From sequence record PV159336: a DNA stretch of 64,000 nucleotides; one strand, written 5' to 3'. Origin of the DNA: Escherichia phage W22. The position numbers and the translations under genes are program-made. Positions 10,742-21,854 of the stretch are shown piece by piece. The notes beneath the pieces were generated by a model. That model was not told the DNA's origin, searched no databases, and was given only the letters and a program-made list of their open reading frames with translations. How positions within the stretch are numbered: position 1 is the first letter of the stretch; each line of letters opens with the position of its first letter.

Positions 10742-11146
10742 TTATTGTAGCTTAAGTGAACTGCGAAGACGTTTCTCTTGCTGATCACGAATATGTTGTG
10801 GAACCTCATGAATTGAGTCGTTACCGTGCCTATTTTCAACAACTAAAGAGATAACTTGATAACCAAACTCTTCAGCAAGAGTAAAATAAGGTTTAAGTTC
10901 TTTCTCTGTGGTTGAAGTGTTAGAGACAATAATCTTTTTAATATTAGATGCCATAGCATCACGAACAATACTCTGACACCATGCGTGTGCTTTACCTACA
11001 TTCTCTGGCTTCCAATCGTAAACACCACTTTCTGTGTAATGATATTGATCTGCCTCACAGATAGGCCAATAACCTTCAGAAATAATTTCTGCTACTGTAG
11101 ATTTACCTGCACCTGAAACACCACGTAAGATGATAAGTTGTTTCAT
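10742..11146 (-). CDS. P-loop kinase, candidate polynucleotide 5'-kinase
   Basis: 134 aa; Walker A GVSGAGKST at residues 9-17; directly abuts the ligase-like gene. Confidence 0.5.
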   Translation of the reverse strand: MKQLIILRGVSGAGKSTVAEIISEGYWPICEADQYHYTESGVYDWKPENVGKAHAWCQSIVRDAMASNIKKIIVSNTSTTEKELKPYFTLAEEFGYQVISLVVENRHGNDSIHEVPQHIRDQQEKRLRSSLKLQ

Positions 11147-12079
11147 TTAGCCTCCAAAGAAGTTTTCTATTTCTTTACGTCGCTCTTGTGGATCTAAAGC
11201 AGCCCATTGAGTCTTAGTAAAGTTGTTTCGAAGCCATTCTAGCAAAGTATAATATTCTTCGTCAACAATTTGTTTAGCATTTTTTGGGTTGTCCCAAATC
11301 ATATCCCACTTCTTATTGCCACCACGCATAAGGAATTTCTTAGCAAGATAGTATGGTGACTTAATCTTTAACAGCAAGTTAAACGGATAGTTTGTTTCAC
11401 GAACAACAAACCCTTCGTGCTTACAATGTTTAGACATTTCAACAACATCTGAAAATTTAATCATCGGATAAACTTCAGGACGTTTAAATTTTGTAATAGA
11501 TGCAATCCCATCAAGCACACCTTCGGGTAGCATGAAACTTGTCCCATCAGGATTTTGAATCCTTGCTCCAATTAAGTATGCGCCTGGTTCTTCTTCAACA
11601 ATATGTGGATCAGAAGGATCACAGATTTCAAAAAGGAAAGTTGCTTTTGCACTTTCTGTCCACTTAATGAAATATTCTATGTCATCACACTCGGAAACAA
11701 TATGGTTCTTGGCAAGAATTGCAAAATCTGACTCTAGGCTCCCTGTTGTTGATACAATAAGTTGCCCTTTGTACACACCTACAGATGCCATAAAACCGTT
11801 TACTTTACGGACAGCATCTACAAGCTGGTCTGCTGGAAGATCTGTACCATTCTCAAAACGATTAAAGATTTTAGTAAAAGGCCAAATAACAACATTGTCT
11901 TCTGAGTCAACAACCAACCCACGACAATCTAGAAGGCGTTTGTCTACGTCCCACAAGTTATCCCAGAATACATTGTTTTTGTATTTAAGTACAGCAAGAC
12001 CAGCATACTCTCCAGATTTAACTTCTTTTTTATGCACTAAACCTTTTGCAATCAGGTCATCACAATTGAACTTAGCCAC
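11147..12079 (-). CDS. putative ATP-dependent RNA ligase (nucleotidyltransferase superfamily)
   Basis: 310 aa; candidate motif I KVNG (lysine nucleotidyltransferase), EGFVVRE (IV), LKIKSP (V); flanked with 0-1 nt gaps by kinase and phosphoesterase. Confidence 0.5.
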   Translation of the reverse strand: MAKFNCDDLIAKGLVHKKEVKSGEYAGLAVLKYKNNVFWDNLWDVDKRLLDCRGLVVDSEDNVVIWPFTKIFNRFENGTDLPADQLVDAVRKVNGFMASVGVYKGQLIVSTTGSLESDFAILAKNHIVSECDDIEYFIKWTESAKATFLFEICDPSDPHIVEEEPGAYLIGARIQNPDGTSFMLPEGVLDGIASITKFKRPEVYPMIKFSDVVEMSKHCKHEGFVVRETNYPFNLLLKIKSPYYLAKKFLMRGGNKKWDMIWDNPKNAKQIVDEEYYTLLEWLRNNFTKTQWAALDPQERRKEIENFFGG

Positions 12080-12080
12080 C

Positions 12081-12632
12081 TTAATCTCCTTTGATTATCT
12101 TATGATGGTCTACAACAACAATATCACGTTTATCCATAATAGAGATGATTTCGTCAAAATGCAAGATTTTTCCGTGTGCGTCCCAACCAACATCCAACAT
12201 TTTCCCATACAAATGATCAGGGAATGATCCGTGAGAGTGCCCGTGTAGCATGATTGATCCATGCCCTTGTTTATTCCAGGCAGCCATAGGGTAATGACTT
12301 AAGACGAAGAACAGTTTCTGATATTTCACTTCGTCATAATACACAACCTCACCATATTCTGCAAGCACTTCTCGGTGTTTGCTGTAATCATGGTTCCCAA
12401 CACAGTAAGTGATATCACCTTGAAGACGTGAAGCAATTTTACGGGTATCTTCTTCAGTCCCGAAACAGAAGTCCCCAAGATGGTACATCTTTACTCCTGG
12501 TGTTGTGGCACATTTATTCCATGCCTCGATCAGTGCTTCTGTCATATGCTCCATATCTTCCCACGGGCGATATTCAGGAGCAAACTCTCGGATACGTTTG
12601 TGCATAAAATGCAAATCACTTGTAATAAACAT
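12081..12632 (-). CDS. calcineurin-like metallophosphoesterase, candidate 2',3'-phosphatase
   Basis: 183 aa; DLHF, GDF..G, GNHD, GHSH metallophosphatase signature motifs. Confidence 0.7.
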   Translation of the reverse strand: MFITSDLHFMHKRIREFAPEYRPWEDMEHMTEALIEAWNKCATTPGVKMYHLGDFCFGTEEDTRKIASRLQGDITYCVGNHDYSKHREVLAEYGEVVYYDEVKYQKLFFVLSHYPMAAWNKQGHGSIMLHGHSHGSFPDHLYGKMLDVGWDAHGKILHFDEIISIMDKRDIVVVDHHKIIKGD

Positions 12633-15527: not shown

Positions 15528-16421
15528 ATGAAAGTTAGTATTCTGCATGGTGTTGACTGTTATGTTACTGATGTAGACGTTAAAGTGTTTACATTCTCTG
15601 GTGGAGAACAACATGTTCAATTAGATACGAATCTATCAGGTTTCAATCATGCTACAGACAGAATCTTACTCACTTTAGAAGTAAGATCTGCTAAAGACTT
15701 GATGACTTTGGTTATGACTAAGAATGCATTGGACAATATGCTATATCATAAACCATATTGTGTTGATTTACTCATGTTGTATGTGCCGTATGCACGACAA
15801 GACAGAGTGTGTGAGCCTGGGGAAGCATTCGGAGTTAAAGCATTTGCTTCTATAATTAATTCATTAAATTTCTCACGTGTTATCGTTGCTGATCCACATA
15901 GTGATGTTACTCCAGCAGTGTTTGACAGACTCTGTGTAATACCTCAAGAAGAGATTGCTTACGAAACTTTAAAGTGGAAGTTACGTATGGAGAATTTTGC
16001 TCTTGTTAGCCCTGATGGTGGTGCTCTTAAGAAAATATTTAAATTATCTAAGAAAATGTCTTTAGATGTGTTCTGTGCAGAGAAGGTTAGAGATACCGCA
16101 ACAGGTGCTATTGTTCGTACAGACATTTCTGTACAGGATTTCAATAAGCGTAACCTGATGATCGTAGATGATATCTGTGATGGTGGTAGAACTTTTATCG
16201 AATTGGCTAAAGTGCTACGTGCTCGTAACGCAGGTAAGATTGAGCTATATGTTACACACGGTATCTTTTCTAAAGGTCTTAAAGAGTTGAGTGAGCACTT
16301 TGACTGCATTCATTCTCTTAATGTGTGGGAAGATAACATCCAAGAAGATTCCGGTGTTCTTGTTAAGAATCAGTCAGATTTGCAACAACAAATTGTATCT
16401 CCATACGTGTGGAATTTTTAA
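15528..16421 (+). CDS. prs: ribose-phosphate pyrophosphokinase (PRPP synthetase)-like; possibly ADP-ribose pyrophosphokinase of an NAD+ reconstitution pathway
   Basis: 297 aa; PRPP-binding loop LMIVDDICDGGRTF; AGGAG RBS. Confidence 0.7.
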   Translation: MKVSILHGVDCYVTDVDVKVFTFSGGEQHVQLDTNLSGFNHATDRILLTLEVRSAKDLMTLVMTKNALDNMLYHKPYCVDLLMLYVPYARQDRVCEPGEAFGVKAFASIINSLNFSRVIVADPHSDVTPAVFDRLCVIPQEEIAYETLKWKLRMENFALVSPDGGALKKIFKLSKKMSLDVFCAEKVRDTATGAIVRTDISVQDFNKRNLMIVDDICDGGRTFIELAKVLRARNAGKIELYVTHGIFSKGLKELSEHFDCIHSLNVWEDNIQEDSGVLVKNQSDLQQQIVSPYVWNF

Positions 16422-16431
16422 ATAACAAGTG

Positions 16432-16460
16432 TTGACAATAGGGAGTATGCTTAGTAAGAT
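16432..16460 (+). promoter_or_regulatory. sigma70-like promoter (TTGACA, 17 nt, TAAGAT)
   Basis: Sequence match upstream of the 16493 start. Confidence 0.45.
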
Positions 16461-16492
16461 ACTCCCACACTAACAAACAAGGAGACATAACT

Positions 16493-18226
16493 ATGAATAT
16501 TTTTGCACCTTTTGCTACTGATTGGTACAAACCTGGTCACAAGCAGATGTACAATCAAAATACAAAACTCATTTTCTCTAATTTAACTCCTCGTAATGAT
16601 AAAAACTTTGCGCACTATGCAGATCGTGAAGCACGTGGTGTGATTGTTTTAGGTATTCGTCGAGCAGTCACTGATGCTCTTGTAACTATGTGGGATAGCT
16701 TCTTTAAAATGTCTCGTAGTGCAGCAGTAAATAAATTTTATCGTATGTCTAAAAATGCATTAGGTGCTTCTGCTCCTTCTGCTGAATGTTGGGGAGAATT
16801 GCACGATTTAGGTTATCTTCCGCTGGAAGTTCGATCTCTGCCAGAAGGTGTTTTGTGTCCTATTGGTGTTCCTGTGTTTACTGTGCATAATACTTTAGAA
16901 AAATTCTTTTGGTTAACTAACTATGTGGAAACACTGTTGTCAGATGAAACTTGGAAGACAATGACTAATGCCACAGCAGCTTTTCAGTATAAGCGTATCG
17001 CTATGGCATATGCGATGGCAACGTGTGATAATATTGATCACGTTAACTTCCAGTGTCATGATTTTAGCCTACGTGGTTTAAGTAATATCGAAGATGGTTA
17101 TAAGAGTGGTATCGCTCATTTAGCATCTTTCACAGGGACAGATAATATTCTGGCTATTGAAACTGTGCATGATTATTATGGTATTGATTATGATCAGTTT
17201 GTTGCAGGTTCTATTCCGGCAACAGAACATTCAGTAGCAACGACTAACATTGGAGCTATTGTTGAAGACCTGAAGAAACATTTCCCACATCTTAAAGATG
17301 ATGTAGATGGTCTTCGTTATGTAGCAGAGAAAGAGTTTCTTCGTCGTTATATTGAAGAAATTGTTCCAGAAGGTTTTTGTTCATATGTAGCAGATTCCTA
17401 TGATTACTGGGCTGTCTTGACTCGCATTCTGGTAGAATTGAAAGAATCCATTATGTCACGAAATGGTCGTCTTGTTATTCGTCCAGATTCAGGAGATCCG
17501 GTTAAAGTTGTTGCAGGATACAATGTTGAATCTTTTGATAACTATGAAGACCTTTTAAATAATGGTATTGCGACAGCCACTGAAGTAGTTCATTTGGCTG
17601 ATGTTAATAAGTATTACAATGTTCTTCAGGATTGCAGTGTTGCTGACTGTATTGATGAAACTTATGAGATTCCTTATTGTGAAGCAGTAGGTTCTATTCA
17701 AATCCTTTGGGAAGTGTTTGGTGGTACTATCAACCGAAAAGGCTACAAGGTTCTTGATCAGCATATCGGTATGATTTATGGTGATTCTATTACTGTTGAA
17801 CGAGAACACGAGATCTTACGCCGACTGAAGAAGAAAGGTTTTGCAGCTTCCAATATCGTATTTGGTGTTGGTAGTTATACTTATCAGTTCAATACACGAG
17901 ATACTTTCGGTTTTGCTGTTAAAGCAACAGGTAGTATCATCGGTGAACACGAAATTTTGGTAAGTAAGGAGCCTAAAACTGATCCTGGTAAACGCTCTGC
18001 AAAAGGTTTTATTAAGGTTGTTAAGGATACCAATGGTAATCTGTCTCTTGTAGATAATCTTTCTTTTAAAGATATCCAGGATGAAGACAATGAGTTACAA
18101 GTTATCTTCAAGGATGGTAAGGTTATTACACCACAAGTAGAAGGCCGTGATGAAACATTCACTGATATCCGCAACCGTGTTGACGTAGAGGTTCTTCGTA
18201 CTATGGGAACCATCCAGGTTGACTAA
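16493..18226 (+). CDS. nadV: nicotinamide phosphoribosyltransferase (NadV/NAMPT)-like
   Basis: 577 aa; N-terminal FATDWYKPGHKQMY and overall length typical of the NAMPT family. Confidence 0.7.
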   Translation: MNIFAPFATDWYKPGHKQMYNQNTKLIFSNLTPRNDKNFAHYADREARGVIVLGIRRAVTDALVTMWDSFFKMSRSAAVNKFYRMSKNALGASAPSAECWGELHDLGYLPLEVRSLPEGVLCPIGVPVFTVHNTLEKFFWLTNYVETLLSDETWKTMTNATAAFQYKRIAMAYAMATCDNIDHVNFQCHDFSLRGLSNIEDGYKSGIAHLASFTGTDNILAIETVHDYYGIDYDQFVAGSIPATEHSVATTNIGAIVEDLKKHFPHLKDDVDGLRYVAEKEFLRRYIEEIVPEGFCSYVADSYDYWAVLTRILVELKESIMSRNGRLVIRPDSGDPVKVVAGYNVESFDNYEDLLNNGIATATEVVHLADVNKYYNVLQDCSVADCIDETYEIPYCEAVGSIQILWEVFGGTINRKGYKVLDQHIGMIYGDSITVEREHEILRRLKKKGFAASNIVFGVGSYTYQFNTRDTFGFAVKATGSIIGEHEILVSKEPKTDPGKRSAKGFIKVVKDTNGNLSLVDNLSFKDIQDEDNELQVIFKDGKVITPQVEGRDETFTDIRNRVDVEVLRTMGTIQVD

Positions 18227-18532: not shown

Positions 18533-18643
18533 ATGTCTACAGAAATTATTTTTGGCTTATCTGTTTTTATTGCTATTGTATCTTTTGTATGCGGTTATAC
18601 ACTAGGTTACAGATCAAGAAAAAATATTGTAAAAACTAGTTGA
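18533..18643 (+). CDS. small hydrophobic protein (36 aa, one predicted TM helix)
   Basis: Manual ORF MSTEIIFGLSVFIAIVSFVCGYTLGYRSRKNIVKTS after AAGGA RBS. Confidence 0.3.
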   Translation: MSTEIIFGLSVFIAIVSFVCGYTLGYRSRKNIVKTS

Positions 18644-18669
18644 CAACATAGCTAGTTATTTGCTAAGAT
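18640..18669 (+). promoter_or_regulatory. sigma70-like promoter (TTGACA, 18 nt, TGc-TAAGAT)
   Basis: Sequence match upstream of the 18700 start. Confidence 0.4.
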
Positions 18670-19080: not shown

Positions 19081-19166
19081 GCAAGTGTGGTGGAATTGGT
19101 GATACACATTGTGCTTAAAACGCAACGCTTAAATGCTTGAGGGTTCGAATCCCTCCACTTGCACCA
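19081..19166 (+). tRNA. tRNA-Leu (anticodon TAA)
   Basis: Manual fold: acceptor GCAAGTG/CACTTGC, loop CTTAAAA, long variable arm, T-loop GGTTCGAATCC, CCA. Confidence 0.6.
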
Positions 19167-19168
19167 AC

Positions 19169-19273
19169 GCCTAGTAGGGTATTTGGTAATTCCGAGGCCA
19201 TCAAAGCCTGAAAAATATGTTAGACCGCTTTGTCTAACTAAATACGAAATATGGTTCGATTCCATAACTAGGC
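19169..19273 (+). ncRNA. atypical tRNA-like element (about 105 nt; possible UCA anticodon; no CCA)
   Basis: Perfect 7-bp acceptor GCCTAGT/ACTAGGC, T-arm TATGG-TTCGATT-CCATA, anticodon-like hairpin with loop CATCAAA, 7-bp extra arm GTTAGAC/GTCTAAC. Confidence 0.3.
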
Positions 19274-19306
19274 TTCAATTTAAATAATAATTTTAGTAAA
19301 AATATC

Positions 19307-19335
19307 TTGACATTCACTTAGTTTTTTGTTATAGT
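19307..19335 (+). promoter_or_regulatory. sigma70-like promoter (TTGACA, 17 nt, TGt-TATAGT)
   Basis: Near-consensus promoter inside the tRNA cluster. Confidence 0.5.
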
Positions 19336-19345
19336 TACTGTGAAA

Positions 19346-19427
19346 ACGGGGTGTATCTCACCTGACTTCTAATCAGGCGTTAACCGAGTAATTGGAGTAT
19401 GCAGGTTCGAATCCTGTCACCCCGACC
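19346..19427 (+). ncRNA. atypical tRNA-like element (anticodon-like loop CTTCTAA, no recognisable D-arm)
   Basis: Perfect acceptor CGGGGTG/CACCCCG plus ACCA, T-arm GCAGG-TTCGAAT-CCTGT, hairpin CCTGA-CTTCTAA-TCAGG only 7 nt after the acceptor. Confidence 0.35.
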
Positions 19428-19446
19428 AAAAAGTTTTTAAAAACTA

Positions 19447-21553: not shown

Positions 21554-21632
21554 CGCGGGATAGAGGAGTCTGGTCGTCCTCGCCAGTTTCATATGCTGGA
21601 GATCGTAGGTTCAAATCCTACTCCCGCCTCCA
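21554..21632 (+). tRNA. tRNA, anticodon CAT (Met, fMet or Ile2)
   Basis: Manual fold: D-stem GAGG/CCTC, stem CCAGT/GCTGG loop TTCATAT, T-loop GGTTCAAATCC, CCA; one acceptor mismatch. Confidence 0.45.
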
Positions 21633-21697
21633 ATAAATACCTCCCTTCTGGTGTAATGATTAAGTTACATTGACACTTCAAGGAACTTATAGCCGGG

Positions 21698-21773
21698 TAG
21701 ATTTAAAAGAGTATGGTACTCAATATGGCTCCAAACCATAGATCAAGGGGTTCGATTCCTCACCTTGCTGCCA
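21698..21773 (+). ncRNA. tRNA-Trp-like element (anticodon-like loop CTCCAAA) with unpaired acceptor
   Basis: Perfect stem TATGG/CCATA with loop CTCCAAA, T-arm with TTCGATT loop, 3' CCA; no complementary 5' acceptor strand found. Confidence 0.3.
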
Positions 21774-21778
21774 ATTAT

Positions 21779-21854
21779 TGTGGTATCGTACAGATGGTTA
21801 GTACACTCGACCGATAATCGAGAAACAACGGTTCGACTCCGTTTACCACGACCA
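21779..21854 (+). tRNA. tRNA-Ile (anticodon GAT)
   Basis: Manual fold: acceptor TGTGGTA/TACCACG, D-arm GTACAGATGGTTAGTAC, stem CTCGA/TCGAG loop CCGATAA, T-loop GGTTCGACTCC, CCA. Confidence 0.55.

What the first reader, a model, noticed from the sequence alone, without database searches (positions are those of the whole stretch)
19169..19273. 105-nt tRNA-like RNA with possible UCA anticodon and long extra arm
Immediately after tRNA-Leu there is a perfect 7-bp acceptor pairing (GCCTAGT/ACTAGGC) and a T-arm (TATGG-TTCGATT-CCATA), but the span is 105 nt, no CCA is encoded, the anticodon-like loop reads CATCAAA (anticodon UCA, which would read UGA) and a perfect 7-bp extra hairpin is present. It could be a suppressor or Sec-like tRNA, a tRNA with an insertion, or a tRNA-derived regulatory RNA.
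Basis: inference. Interest (0 to 1): 0.5.

Follow-up and report, generated by a model that had tools for sequence, protein, structure and literature searches.

The report
Conserved phage tRNA-like RNA, not suppressor
The 105-base element is a real gene for a tRNA-shaped RNA with an extra 40-base module; relatives occur in the tRNA clusters of several phage groups, and comparison shows it is most likely a tRNA mimic, not a tRNA that reads the UGA stop codon.

Summary

The element belongs to a family of 100-112 nt tRNA-like RNAs. I found the family in Stephanstirmvirinae, five genera of Vequintavirinae, one N4-like Salmonella phage and some metagenomic phage contigs. I found it in no bacterial genome. 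I found no Rfam family or paper that describes it, within the limits of those searches.

Across 20 distinct sequences, 98.7% of helix cells pair and 13 of 23 pairs show compensatory changes. The tertiary G19:C56 elbow pair also covaries (G-C in 13, U-A in 7).

The family does not share an anticodon:
- The anticodon-like arm has only 4 pairs flanked by an invariant G.G.
- The window's loop has A where tRNAs have U33.
- The loop differs between subgroups: CAUCAAA, an 8-nt CCNNCCAG, UUUUUAA, UUUAUAA.

The tRNA-Sec model scores 29.4 bits against a threshold of 47, no better than ordinary tRNA-Ser. No gene in the window is interrupted by TGA. About 25 of 55 genomes of the genus have deleted the element.

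Best reading: a processed, probably CCA-tailed, non-decoding tRNA mimic that looks derived from tRNA-Gly. Its function is unknown; a decoy or competitor for a tRNA-binding protein is my leading guess. It resembles the T4 and T5 tRNA-like stable RNAs in kind but is not detectably homologous to them.

The parts
18640..18669 (+). Sigma-70-like promoter (TTGACA-18-TAAGAT), probable start of the unit: small ORF, tRNA-Met, tRNA-Leu, element
   Evidence: Consensus scan, 10 of 12 matches with a TG extension. The link to the element is inferred from the lack of any promoter-like site between it and the element.
19081..19166 (+). tRNA-Leu(UAA) with encoded CCA, directly upstream; the 2-nt spacer AC is 19167-19168
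   Evidence: ARAGORN; Rfam tRNA 56.1 bits
19169..19175 (+). Acceptor stem, 5' strand (GCCTAGT)
   Evidence: Pairs with 19267-19273. In the family 100% of cells pair and 3 of 7 pairs have compensatory changes. G1:C72 and C2:G71 are invariant.
19176..19194 (+). A8-G9, then the D arm (GGTA / TTTGGTAA / TTCC) and an invariant G
   Evidence: 3 of 4 D-stem pairs covary. The window type has one U.U mismatch. A8 and U14 are invariant, the reverse of the usual U8:A14. G in the UUUGG loop covaries with the T-loop C: GC in 13, UA in 7.
19195..19209 (+). Anticodon-like arm: 4-bp stem AGGC/GCCT with 7-nt loop CAUCAAA (19199-19205)
   Evidence: 2 of 4 stem pairs covary and 100% of cells pair. The loop sequence is subgroup-specific. 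One genus member has UAUCAAA.
19210..19218 (+). Invariant G followed by an A-rich linker (GAAAAAUAU)
   Evidence: The G and three of the following A positions are invariant in all 20 sequences; a fourth is nearly so
19219..19238 (+). Variable-region hairpin: 7 bp GTTAGAC/GTCTAAC, loop CGCTTT
   Evidence: The three modelled basal pairs all covary. Every family member folds a hairpin here, but with different sequences and lengths. Substitutions within the genus fall in its loop.
19239..19249 (+). 3' linker UAAAUACGAAA, containing the family motif AAUAC
   Evidence: AAUAC is invariant in the 20 aligned sequences; two metagenomic members keep only AUAC. Most members read AAUACAUA, and the window type reads AAUACGAAA.
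19250..19266 (+). T arm: TATGG / TTCGATT / CCATA
   Evidence: Canonical T loop. 2 of 5 stem pairs have compensatory changes, and the window type carries both of them.
19267..19277 (+). Acceptor stem 3' strand (ACTAGGC), discriminator U (19274), then UCA where most relatives encode CCA
   Evidence: Most relatives encode U-CCA. Variants within the genus read U-CCC or U-UCA.
19307..19335 (+). Next promoter (TTGACA-17-TATAGT), which marks the end of the element's transcription unit
   Evidence: 11 of 12 consensus matches. It drives the neighbouring tRNA(UCU) that lacks a D arm.

Best explanation
The element is a gene for a non-canonical tRNA-like RNA. It belongs to a conserved family that I found only in phages.

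Shown:
- It folds as a tRNA: a 7-bp acceptor stem, a D arm, a T arm and the D-loop/T-loop elbow pair.
- It differs from a tRNA in three ways. The anticodon-like arm is one pair short. Positions 8 and 14 are swapped to A8/U14. The variable loop is replaced by a 40-nt module (A-rich linker, hairpin of variable sequence, AAUAC linker).

Inferred:
- It is transcribed from the early promoter at 18640 together with tRNA-Met and tRNA-Leu.
- RNase P cuts its 5' end, two bases after the CCA of tRNA-Leu. Its 3' end is trimmed and completed to CCA by host enzymes. Most relatives encode U73-CCA.
- It does not decode UGA. The scaffold looks derived from tRNA-Gly: invariant G1:C72, C2:G71 and G10:C25, with U73 in most members and NCC in the Seunavirus and Mydovirus loops.
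- It acts as a tRNA mimic away from the decoding site. It would engage a protein that recognises tRNA shape plus the anticodon-like loop, either a host aminoacyl-tRNA synthetase or a tRNA-cleaving defence nuclease, as a decoy or competitor. It may do so in aminoacylated form.

Confidence by layer:
- Conserved, structured tRNA-like RNA gene: about 0.9.
- Not a UGA or Sec decoder: about 0.8.
- The decoy/competitor mechanism specifically: about 0.3.
For: Family and structure:
- Homologues at 70-78% identity lie inside the tRNA clusters of Henunavirus, Seunavirus, Mydovirus, Avunavirus, Vequintavirus and one Schitoviridae phage. Further members are on metagenomic phage contigs.
- 98.7% of cells pair, 13 of 23 pairs carry compensatory changes, and slid controls give 31-47%.
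- The elbow pair covaries, G-C in 13 and U-A in 7, with no mismatches.
- G.U pairs in the T stem identify + as the RNA strand.

Processing context:
- Spacers to the flanking tRNAs are 2-6 nt in the window, Hena1, PVP-SE1, UTK0002 and rV5-type phages.
- U-CCA is encoded in 13 of the 20 family members tabulated.

Against a decoding role:
- See the loop table, the Rfam and ARAGORN results, stop-codon use and the deletions.

Identity-like covariation:
- Seunavirus and Mydovirus loops read CC-N-(U/G)-CC-AG. Only the two positions before CC vary. These members also have U73, G1:C72 and C2:G71.
- rV5-type members have UUU with A73, and the rV5-type cluster I scanned (L041, which holds only part of an 84-kb contig) shows no other tRNA-Lys.
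- These combinations match the Gly and Lys identity sets listed in PMC9976931.

Context:
- The phage encodes a P-loop kinase, an Rnl1-type RNA ligase and a metallophosphoesterase side by side (10742-12632, minus strand). This looks like a tRNA-repair module, which suggests pressure from tRNA-cleaving defences.

Selection within the genus:
- Substitutions fall only in the hairpin loop, at loop position 32 and in the 3' trailer.
Against: - There is no expression, processing or aminoacylation data for any member.
- The target protein is unknown, and no partner gene is consistently adjacent.
- The identity-element argument rests on only two or three independent evolutionary events. It also numbers non-canonical 6- or 8-nt loops by analogy with tRNA.
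- The window type fits the family consensus least well. It has a U.U mismatch in the D stem, UCA or CCC instead of CCA, an altered 3' linker and the lowest model scores apart from the rV5/Avunavirus-type copies (about 102 bits).
- It has been lost at least twice in the genus, so this particular copy may be losing function.
- UCA matches no complete synthetase identity set.
Confidence: 0.55

Rival explanations
1. It is a working opal (UGA) suppressor or recoding tRNA, perhaps inserting Gly or Cys. The long variable module would be tolerated, as in class II tRNAs, and would give low-level read-through of UGA stops.
For: The 7-nt loop CAUCAAA puts UCA where an anticodon would sit, followed by A37 and A38. 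The loop is identical in four divergent lineages (window, Henunavirus, UTK0002, metagenome L089), even though their stems differ. GenBank annotators called the Hena1 and pEp_SNUABM_01 copies tRNA-sup(tca). U73 with C35 and A36 partly matches Cys identity, and the scaffold is Gly-like. rV5-type copies have a fully canonical-looking loop (U33, UUU, A37), reach 35.5 bits on Rfam tRNA, above its threshold of 29, and are annotated tRNA-Lys.
Against: A33 replaces the near-universal U33. The stem has 4 pairs, and sister subgroups have 6- or 8-nt loops on the same scaffold. ARAGORN finds no tRNA, Rfam finds none in the cluster scan, and tRNA-Sec scores below threshold. TGA ends 9 of 69 long ORFs, with no open frame of 40 codons or more after it and no TGA-split genes in the 64 kb. 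The element has been deleted in about 45% of the genus's genome records.
Confidence: 0.12
2. In this genus the copy is a decaying relic. The family is or was functional elsewhere, but the Justusliebigvirus copy is neutral and is being lost.
For: There were two independent deletions: 99 nt in KKE7M, leaving a CTAGGC remnant, and a larger one in A150-type genomes. About 25 of 55 records lack the element. The copy has a D-stem U.U mismatch, a degenerate CCA and an altered 3' linker, and its model score is lower than all but the rV5/Avunavirus-type copies.
Against: The window type carries compensatory double changes in the T stem and acceptor stem and a perfect 7-bp hairpin, which implies selection for structure after it diverged. 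The 30 records that keep it are 96.8-100% identical across it, and their changes fall only in loops and the trailer.
Confidence: 0.15
3. It works only in cis, as a tRNA-shaped processing or stability element at the 3' end of the tRNA-Met/tRNA-Leu transcript, recruiting RNase P or blocking 3' exonucleases, with no role as a free RNA.
For: In the window it is the last structured element before the next promoter, and no terminator follows it on the + strand. It abuts tRNAs with 2-6 nt spacers in every lineage.
Against: In other phages it lies in the middle of the cluster, for example between tRNA-Ser and tRNA-Asn in UTK0002. The invariant single-stranded motifs (GAAAA, AAUAC), the loop sequences conserved within subgroups and the encoded U73-CCA are not needed for a punctuation role.
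Confidence: 0.1
4. It is not an RNA gene of the + strand. It is either a minus-strand intrinsic terminator (the hairpin followed by ATATTTTTC) or the small ORF annotated here in phage cardinal.
For: The terminator scan flags the minus-strand hairpin 19238-19219 followed by a T run. A 35-codon 'hypothetical protein' is annotated over the element in phage cardinal, and that frame is open in the window and Hena1 types.
Against: G.U pairs in the T stem would be C.A on the minus strand. All flanking genes are on the + strand. The frame contains stops in the Seunavirus, Mydovirus and rV5 types, and a 1-nt indel shifts the frame across the conserved T loop. The substitution pattern is compensatory in helices, not synonymous.
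Confidence: 0.02

Closest known systems
Phage T4 species 1 and species 2 RNAs (rnaC, rnaD) and phage T5 RNA1/RNA2 and related 'stable RNAs with unknown functions'
   Same: These are small RNAs encoded inside phage tRNA gene clusters. Some have tRNA-like acceptor and T arms plus extra sequence, lie directly next to tRNAs, and have no known function (annotations; sequences).
   Different: No detectable homology. Model R1 gives T4 rnaC 11.3 bits (E = 0.69) and hits none of the T5 stable RNAs, while true tRNAs in the same loci score higher. Sizes and architectures differ: 119-144 nt there (T4 rnaC/rnaD, T5 RNA1/RNA2), with no shared linker motifs.
Class II (long variable arm) tRNAs and tRNA-Sec (Rfam RF00005, RF01852)
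   Same: Cloverleaf with a hairpin between the anticodon arm and the T arm. The best non-family hits of model R1 are tRNA-Ser, tRNA-Tyr and tRNA-Leu. The loop CAUCAAA differs from the E. coli tRNA-Sec loop CUUCAAA, which I recall from memory, only at position 33.
   Different: The variable region is 40 nt, with long conserved unpaired linkers. The anticodon stem has 4 pairs, position 33 is A, and positions 8 and 14 are A and U. The acceptor/T branch is 7/5, the D arm is 4 bp with an 8-nt loop, and the discriminator is U. Scores fall below both Rfam thresholds.
Bacterial tRNA-Gly, including the non-proteinogenic tRNA-Gly of Staphylococcus used for cell-wall synthesis (from my own knowledge), and the B. 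cereus pseudo-tRNA 'tRNA-Other' (PMC3399842)
   Same: The family shares G1:C72, C2:G71, U73, G10:C25 followed by a G after the anticodon arm, and (in the Seunavirus and Mydovirus types) an invariant CC at the positions equivalent to 35-36. These match the Gly identity set and consensus in PMC9976931. The concept also matches: a tRNA-shaped RNA that is kept out of decoding.
   Different: Sequence similarity to tRNA-Gly is confined to those positions. The window type has UCA, not NCC. The extra module has no counterpart. Charging has not been tested.
Anticodon-loop variant tRNAs that phages use against tRNA-cleaving defences (PMC10264068; PARIS commentary PMC11455837)
   Same: Encoded by a phage within its tRNA array, in a genome that also carries an RNA-repair-like module. 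rV5-type members carry a tRNA-Lys(UUU)-like loop, and tRNA-Lys(UUU) is a frequent nuclease target, for example of a bacterial Schlafen (PMC13056530).
   Different: Those are otherwise canonical, decoding tRNAs. This RNA has a non-canonical anticodon arm and an added domain. No link to any defence system has been shown.

Membership tests
Canonical elongator tRNA (Rfam RF00005 / ARAGORN) | 7-bp acceptor stem, 5-bp T stem, GTTCRANYC-type T loop | tested here: met
   Sequence. 100% of cells pair in both helices across the family.
Canonical elongator tRNA (Rfam RF00005 / ARAGORN) | D arm with G18 G19 that pairs with the T loop (G19:C56) | tested here: met
   Loop UUUGGUAA. Columns 18 and 92 covary, GC in 13 and UA in 7. 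Positions 8 and 14 are A and U rather than U and A.
Canonical elongator tRNA (Rfam RF00005 / ARAGORN) | 5-bp anticodon stem and 7-nt loop with U33 and a purine at 37 | tested here: not met
   4 pairs flanked by an invariant G.G. The loop is CAUCAAA, with A at position 33. Sister subgroups have 6- or 8-nt loops.
Canonical elongator tRNA (Rfam RF00005 / ARAGORN) | Detected by tRNA finders and scoring at or above the Rfam gathering score (29 bits) | tested here: not met
   ARAGORN does not call it. No RF00005 hit is listed at E <= 10. rV5-type homologues do reach 35.5 bits.
tRNA-Sec (Rfam RF01852) | Score at or above the gathering score of 47 bits | tested here: not met
   29.4 bits for the window and 39 bits for Hena1. 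Ordinary tRNA-Ser and tRNA-Tyr score 35-38 bits on the same model.
tRNA-Sec (Rfam RF01852) | 13-bp acceptor/T branch (8/5 in bacteria), 6-bp D stem with a 4-nt loop, G73 | tested here: not met
   The branch is 7/5, the D stem is 4 bp with an 8-nt loop, and the discriminator is U. The cmscan alignment shows deletions and mismatches in these helices. The defining features themselves are from my own knowledge.
tRNA-Sec (Rfam RF01852) | UCA anticodon | tested here: inconclusive
   UCA is at the right place in the loop of the window type, but next to A33, and it is not conserved in the family.
Nonsense-suppressor tRNA in a recoded phage | In-frame stop codons of the suppressed type in phage genes, or depletion of that codon as a terminator | tested here: not met
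   9 of 69 long ORFs end in TGA. None is followed by an open frame of 40 codons or more. Only 64 of about 148 kb were examined.
T4 rnaC/rnaD and T5 tRNA-like stable RNAs | Location in a phage tRNA cluster with a tRNA-like acceptor and T arm | tested here: met
T4 rnaC/rnaD and T5 tRNA-like stable RNAs | Homology in sequence and structure | tested here: not met
   Model R1 gives 11.3 bits for rnaC and no hit for the T5 RNAs.
T4 rnaC/rnaD and T5 tRNA-like stable RNAs | Accumulates as a stable, processed RNA during infection | not testable with these tools
   No transcript data are available.
tmRNA / YrlA (Y RNA-like) | Detection by ARAGORN tmRNA search or by the Rfam tmRNA or YrlA models | tested here: not met
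   No tmRNA was called. No YrlA or tmRNA hit falls on the element.
The family defined here (model R1) | tRNA core with A8/U14, G.G flanking a 4-bp arm, GAAAA linker, hairpin, AAUAC linker, T arm | tested here: met
   102 bits, E = 3e-23. All motifs are present, with a variant 3' linker. The window sequence was part of the model's seed alignment, so the independent support is the blastn matches to Hena1 and UTK0002.

The most novel reading that the evidence does not exclude
The family is an aminoacylatable tRNA-like adaptor that does not decode. Its acceptor-end and loop identity elements change together: Gly-like G1:C72, C2:G71, U73 and NCC in one group; Lys-like A73 and UUU in another; UCA with U73 in the window. 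Host synthetases would charge it, or it would sequester them. The conserved variable-region module would be a handle for a second partner. The RNA would then serve as an amino-acid donor for a non-ribosomal reaction, or as a decoy that soaks up a synthetase or a defence nuclease specific for one tRNA species. That would be a phage strategy not described so far.
Probability: 0.2. Interest if true: 0.75.

Novelty: new variant of a known kind. Interest (0 to 1): 0.48.

Why it matters
Phage tRNA clusters have been known since the 1970s to contain extra tRNA-like stable RNAs whose function has never been found. This family offers a better-constrained case. It is spread over at least three phage lineages. 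It has enough covariation to fix its fold, including a tertiary pair. It carries a modular extra domain. Natural deletion variants exist in otherwise near-identical genomes, which makes genetic tests simple.

If it proves to be a decoy for tRNA-targeting immunity or for a synthetase, it would add an RNA-based member to the phage counter-defence repertoire.

There is also a practical point. Homologues are currently annotated inconsistently, as tRNA-sup(tca), tRNA-TERM, tRNA-OTHER, tRNA-Lys or a 'hypothetical protein', or not at all. The 'suppressor' labels could wrongly suggest stop-codon recoding in these therapeutic-candidate phages.

Tried and rejected
- **T5 and T4 stable RNAs.** I tested homology with covariance model R1. 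There was no hit on any T5 stable RNA, and T4 rnaC scored 11.3 bits. Rejected as homologues and kept as analogues.
- **Rfam.** Scanning the cluster region at E <= 10 gave nothing on the element. Scanning the element alone gave only a sub-threshold tRNA-Sec hit.
- **Collection scans.** Two IMG/VR pattern scans returned only the same phage groups or chance matches. My first genome and metagenome pattern found nothing because I set the gap too long. The corrected pattern found further members on nine metagenomic contigs, including three new sequence variants, and no credible bacterial copy.
- **E. coli genomes.** blastn found no match, so I see no sign of a host origin.
- **Coding hypothesis.** Rejected.
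- **Minus-strand terminator.** Rejected on the G.U pairs.
- **Mobile element or insertion.** Rejected, because KKE7M retains a 6-nt remnant of the acceptor 3' strand, so the polymorphism is a deletion.
- **tRNA intron.** Rejected: the extra sequence is in the variable region, not the anticodon loop, and at 40 nt it is too short for a group I intron.
- **Base-pairing target.** A search for a target of the family motif AAUACAUAG (the window itself reads AAUACGAAA) gave one match, which is the chance expectation.
- **Internal pairings.** Inspection by eye found no conserved loop-loop or linker-linker pairing across subgroups.
- **Literature.** Six full-text searches (a seventh call failed on a term-length error) found no description of this RNA. 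A genus genome paper lists only the 16 canonical tRNAs.
- **Possible partner enzymes.** Pfam scans of neighbouring and early genes found no aminoacyl-tRNA-dependent transferase.
Full report
**Where the window comes from.** A 701-nt segment around the finding is 99-99.7% identical to Escherichia phages EC.P2, PD114, PHB05 and others of the genus Justusliebigvirus (Stephanstirmvirinae, phi92-like myophages of about 147 kb). ARAGORN finds 16 tRNA genes between 18974 and 21854, all on the + strand. Upstream lie genes for a PRPP-synthetase-like protein and a nicotinate/nicotinamide phosphoribosyltransferase-like protein. Downstream lie the large terminase and portal genes.

**The observation.**
- tRNA-Leu(UAA) ends with CCA at 19166, and the spacer is AC.
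- The acceptor arms GCCTAGT (19169-19175) and ACTAGGC (19267-19273) form 7 perfect pairs.
- The T arm is TATGG/TTCGATT/CCATA (19250-19266).
- The loop CATCAAA (19199-19205) sits on the stem AGGC/GCCT.
- The hairpin GTTAGAC/GTCTAAC (19219-19238) has 7 perfect pairs.
- The acceptor is followed by T-TCA, not N-CCA.

Folding the single sequence reproduces the acceptor, hairpin and T arm, but with only a moderate z-score of -2.5. The case for a real feature therefore rests on comparison with relatives.

**A family.**
- blastn with the element finds it at 96.8-100% identity in 30 records of the genus. It also finds matches at about 70% identity in Erwinia phages of the genus Henunavirus and in Salmonella phage UTK0002 (Schitoviridae).
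- Searching again with those copies reaches Seunavirus (PVP-SE1, GAP31), Mydovirus, Avunavirus and Vequintavirus (rV5-like). At least 166 records cover 80% or more of the Hena1 query.
- In every case the element lies inside the phage's tRNA cluster, 2-6 nt from a neighbouring tRNA.
- Annotators have called the copies tRNA-sup(tca)/tRNA-TERM (Hena1, pEp_SNUABM_01), tRNA-OTHER (phage ime), tRNA-Lys-TTT (Gotham) or a 35-codon hypothetical protein (cardinal), or have left them unannotated.
- A corrected pattern scan added metagenomic members on phage-sized contigs and no credible bacterial copy. E. coli genomes give no match.

**Structure.** I aligned 20 distinct sequences, built covariance model R1 and realigned the sequences to it.
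- For the five helices, 98.7% of cells form standard pairs, against 31-47% when partners are slid by 1-3 columns. Thirteen of 23 pairs carry changes on both sides. No shuffle out of 500 reaches the observed covariation score.
- Each helix has compensatory pairs: acceptor 3 of 7, D 3 of 4, anticodon-like 2 of 4, variable hairpin 3 of 3, T 2 of 5.
- The alignment was fitted to the model, which favours the structure. However, the core helices are already in register in the plain MAFFT alignment. The hairpin also folds independently in every member, although its sequence and length differ completely between groups.
- The D-loop G that corresponds to G19 and the T-loop C that corresponds to C56 change together to U and A in seven sequences, with no mismatch. 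That is the tertiary pair of the tRNA elbow, so the RNA very probably adopts the L shape.
- G.U pairs in the T stem show that + is the RNA strand.
- R1 scores members at 96-124 bits and true tRNAs at 31 bits or less.

**How it departs from a tRNA.**
- Positions 8 and 14 are invariantly A and U, the reverse of the usual U8:A14.
- The anticodon-like stem has four pairs flanked by an invariant G.G.
- The region between that arm and the T arm is 30-40 nt. It consists of an invariant G and an A run, a hairpin, and a linker with the motif AAUAC. Most members read AAUACAUA, the window reads AAUACGAAA, and two metagenomic members keep only AUACAUA.
- The loop differs between subgroups:

| Subgroup | Loop |
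|---|---|
| Window, Henunavirus, UTK0002, one metagenomic lineage | CAUCAAA |
| Seunavirus, Mydovirus | 8 nt, CC-N-(U/G)-CC-AG, which can close to a 5-bp stem with a 6-nt loop |
| rV5-like | UUUUUAA |
| Avunavirus | UUUAUAA |

**The suppressor / Sec reading.** I consider it unsupported, for these reasons:
- UCA is confined to one subgroup.
- The position of the universal U33 is A here, and A, C or U in other subgroups.
- The arm is a pair short.
- ARAGORN does not call the element, and Rfam finds nothing when the 4-kb cluster region is scanned. On the element alone, Rfam reports only tRNA-Sec at 29.4 bits against a gathering score of 47. That alignment forces deletions in the 9-bp acceptor stem and mismatches in the 6-bp D stem of the model.
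- Ordinary class II tRNAs score 35-38 bits on the same model, so the hit reflects only the long extra arm.
- In the window, 9 of 69 long ORFs end in TGA, and none is followed by 40 or more open codons.
- The element is dispensable. KKE7M has lost 19169-19267 and retains the last six bases of the acceptor 3' strand, so this is a deletion and not an insertion elsewhere. A150-type genomes carry a larger deletion. About 25 of the 55 genus records lack the element.

I cannot exclude weak suppression. The loop is strictly conserved across four lineages whose stems have diverged, so the loop sequence matters for something.

**Other alternatives.**
- *Small ORF.* The ORF annotated in phage cardinal is not conserved. 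The frame has stops in three subgroups, and an indel shifts the frame across the T loop.
- *Minus-strand terminator.* The terminator-like signal is the hairpin plus the complement of the A run. The G.U pairs and the + strand orientation of all neighbouring genes argue against it.
- *T5 and T4 stable RNAs.* The T5 stable RNAs (RNAI, RNAIII, RNA1, RNA2 and others) and T4 rnaC/rnaD are similar in kind. R1 does not detect them.

**What it may do.** This section is inference.

The tight spacing to tRNAs, and the U73-CCA encoded in 13 of the 20 members tabulated, imply maturation by the tRNA-processing machinery. In the window the unit would start at the promoter at 18640-18669 and end before the promoter at 19307-19335. 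The window's U-UCA, and the U-CCC of some relatives, would need 3' trimming and CCA addition.

The scaffold carries the acceptor-end features of bacterial tRNA-Gly: G1:C72, C2:G71 and U73. It also has G10:C25 followed by a G after the anticodon arm. In the Seunavirus and Mydovirus types only the two loop positions before an invariant CC vary, and the second of these is U or G, as expected for NCC glycine anticodons. The rV5 type has UUU together with a switch of the discriminator to A, which is the lysine identity set. The rV5-type cluster I scanned (L041, part of an 84-kb contig) shows no other tRNA-Lys (identity rules from PMC9976931). This suggests that the RNAs are recognised, and perhaps charged, by synthetases even though the loop geometry is not that of a decoder. 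The events are few, so this is a lead and not a result.

The phage also encodes, side by side, a P-loop kinase, an Rnl1-type RNA ligase and a metallophosphoesterase. This resembles the T4 Pnkp/Rnl1 tRNA-repair pair (from my own knowledge) and points to pressure from tRNA-cleaving defences.

I therefore favour a tRNA mimic that acts as a decoy or competitor for a tRNA-binding protein. A charged amino-acid donor is the more adventurous variant. The leading rivals are that this genus's copy is a decaying relic, that it acts only in cis, or that it is a weak opal suppressor.

**Novelty and verdict.** The family is absent from Rfam. It is also absent from the papers I could search, and a genome paper on a phage that carries it lists only the 16 canonical tRNAs. 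It is a new variant of a known kind, the phage tRNA-like stable RNAs and non-canonical tRNAs.

Noticed in passing
window 19345-19428 (+), promoter 19307-19335: A second odd tRNA sits right after the element, behind its own strong sigma-70-like promoter. It has a 7-bp acceptor stem, no D arm (about 7 unpaired nt instead), a canonical anticodon arm with loop CUUCUAA (UCU, Arg) and a 24-nt variable region with a small hairpin. It also has a T arm and an encoded A-CCA. Rfam tRNA scores it at 40 bits, but ARAGORN misses it. Relatives annotate it as tRNA-Undet or tRNA-OTHER. It occupies the place of tRNA-Arg(tct) in Henunavirus clusters.
   Followed up: partly
window 10742-12632 (-): Three adjacent genes encode a P-loop kinase (AAA_33, 10742-11146), an Rnl1-type RNA ligase (PF09511, 11147-12079) and a calcineurin-like metallophosphoesterase (weak hit, 12081-12632). 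This looks like a split tRNA/RNA repair module, analogous to T4 Pnkp plus Rnl1.
   Followed up: partly
window 15528-18226 (+): A PRPP-synthetase-like gene (15528-16421) and a nicotinate/nicotinamide phosphoribosyltransferase-like gene (16493-18226) lie just upstream of the tRNA cluster. Together they look like an NAD salvage pair, of the kind phages use against NAD-depleting defences (the function is from my own knowledge).
   Followed up: no
L026 328-402 and L038 2598-2672 (Mydovirus loci), directly upstream of their copy of the element: ARAGORN reports a 'tRNA-???' with a 2-nt anticodon (ga) immediately before the element in Mydovirus phages. This may be another non-canonical tRNA-like gene in these clusters.
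   Followed up: no
window 21692-21772 (+): A weak tRNA-like signal lies between tRNA-Met (21554-21632) and tRNA-Ile (21779-21854). Rfam tRNA gives 22.9 bits, below threshold, at 21710-21770, and R1 gives 15.1 bits at 21692-21772. It may be a degenerate tRNA or a further tRNA-like RNA.
   Followed up: no
Hena1 L005 609-716, UTK0002 L007 1501-1608, AV124 L026 405-513, K54_rec3 L029 405-513: In these lineages the variable hairpin has only 3-4 pairs, but its 12-14-nt loop (GAACUAACAGUA-like) is nearly identical across three phage groups, including the N4-like phage. Other lineages carry unrelated hairpins. The hairpin behaves like an exchangeable module whose loop sequence is itself conserved.
   Followed up: partly
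GenBank records MG065639 and related records ('Campylobacter phage A150' and others): Records labelled UNVERIFIED Campylobacter phages are about 98% identical to this E. coli phage genus across the segment that aligns. The host labels are probably wrong.
   Followed up: no
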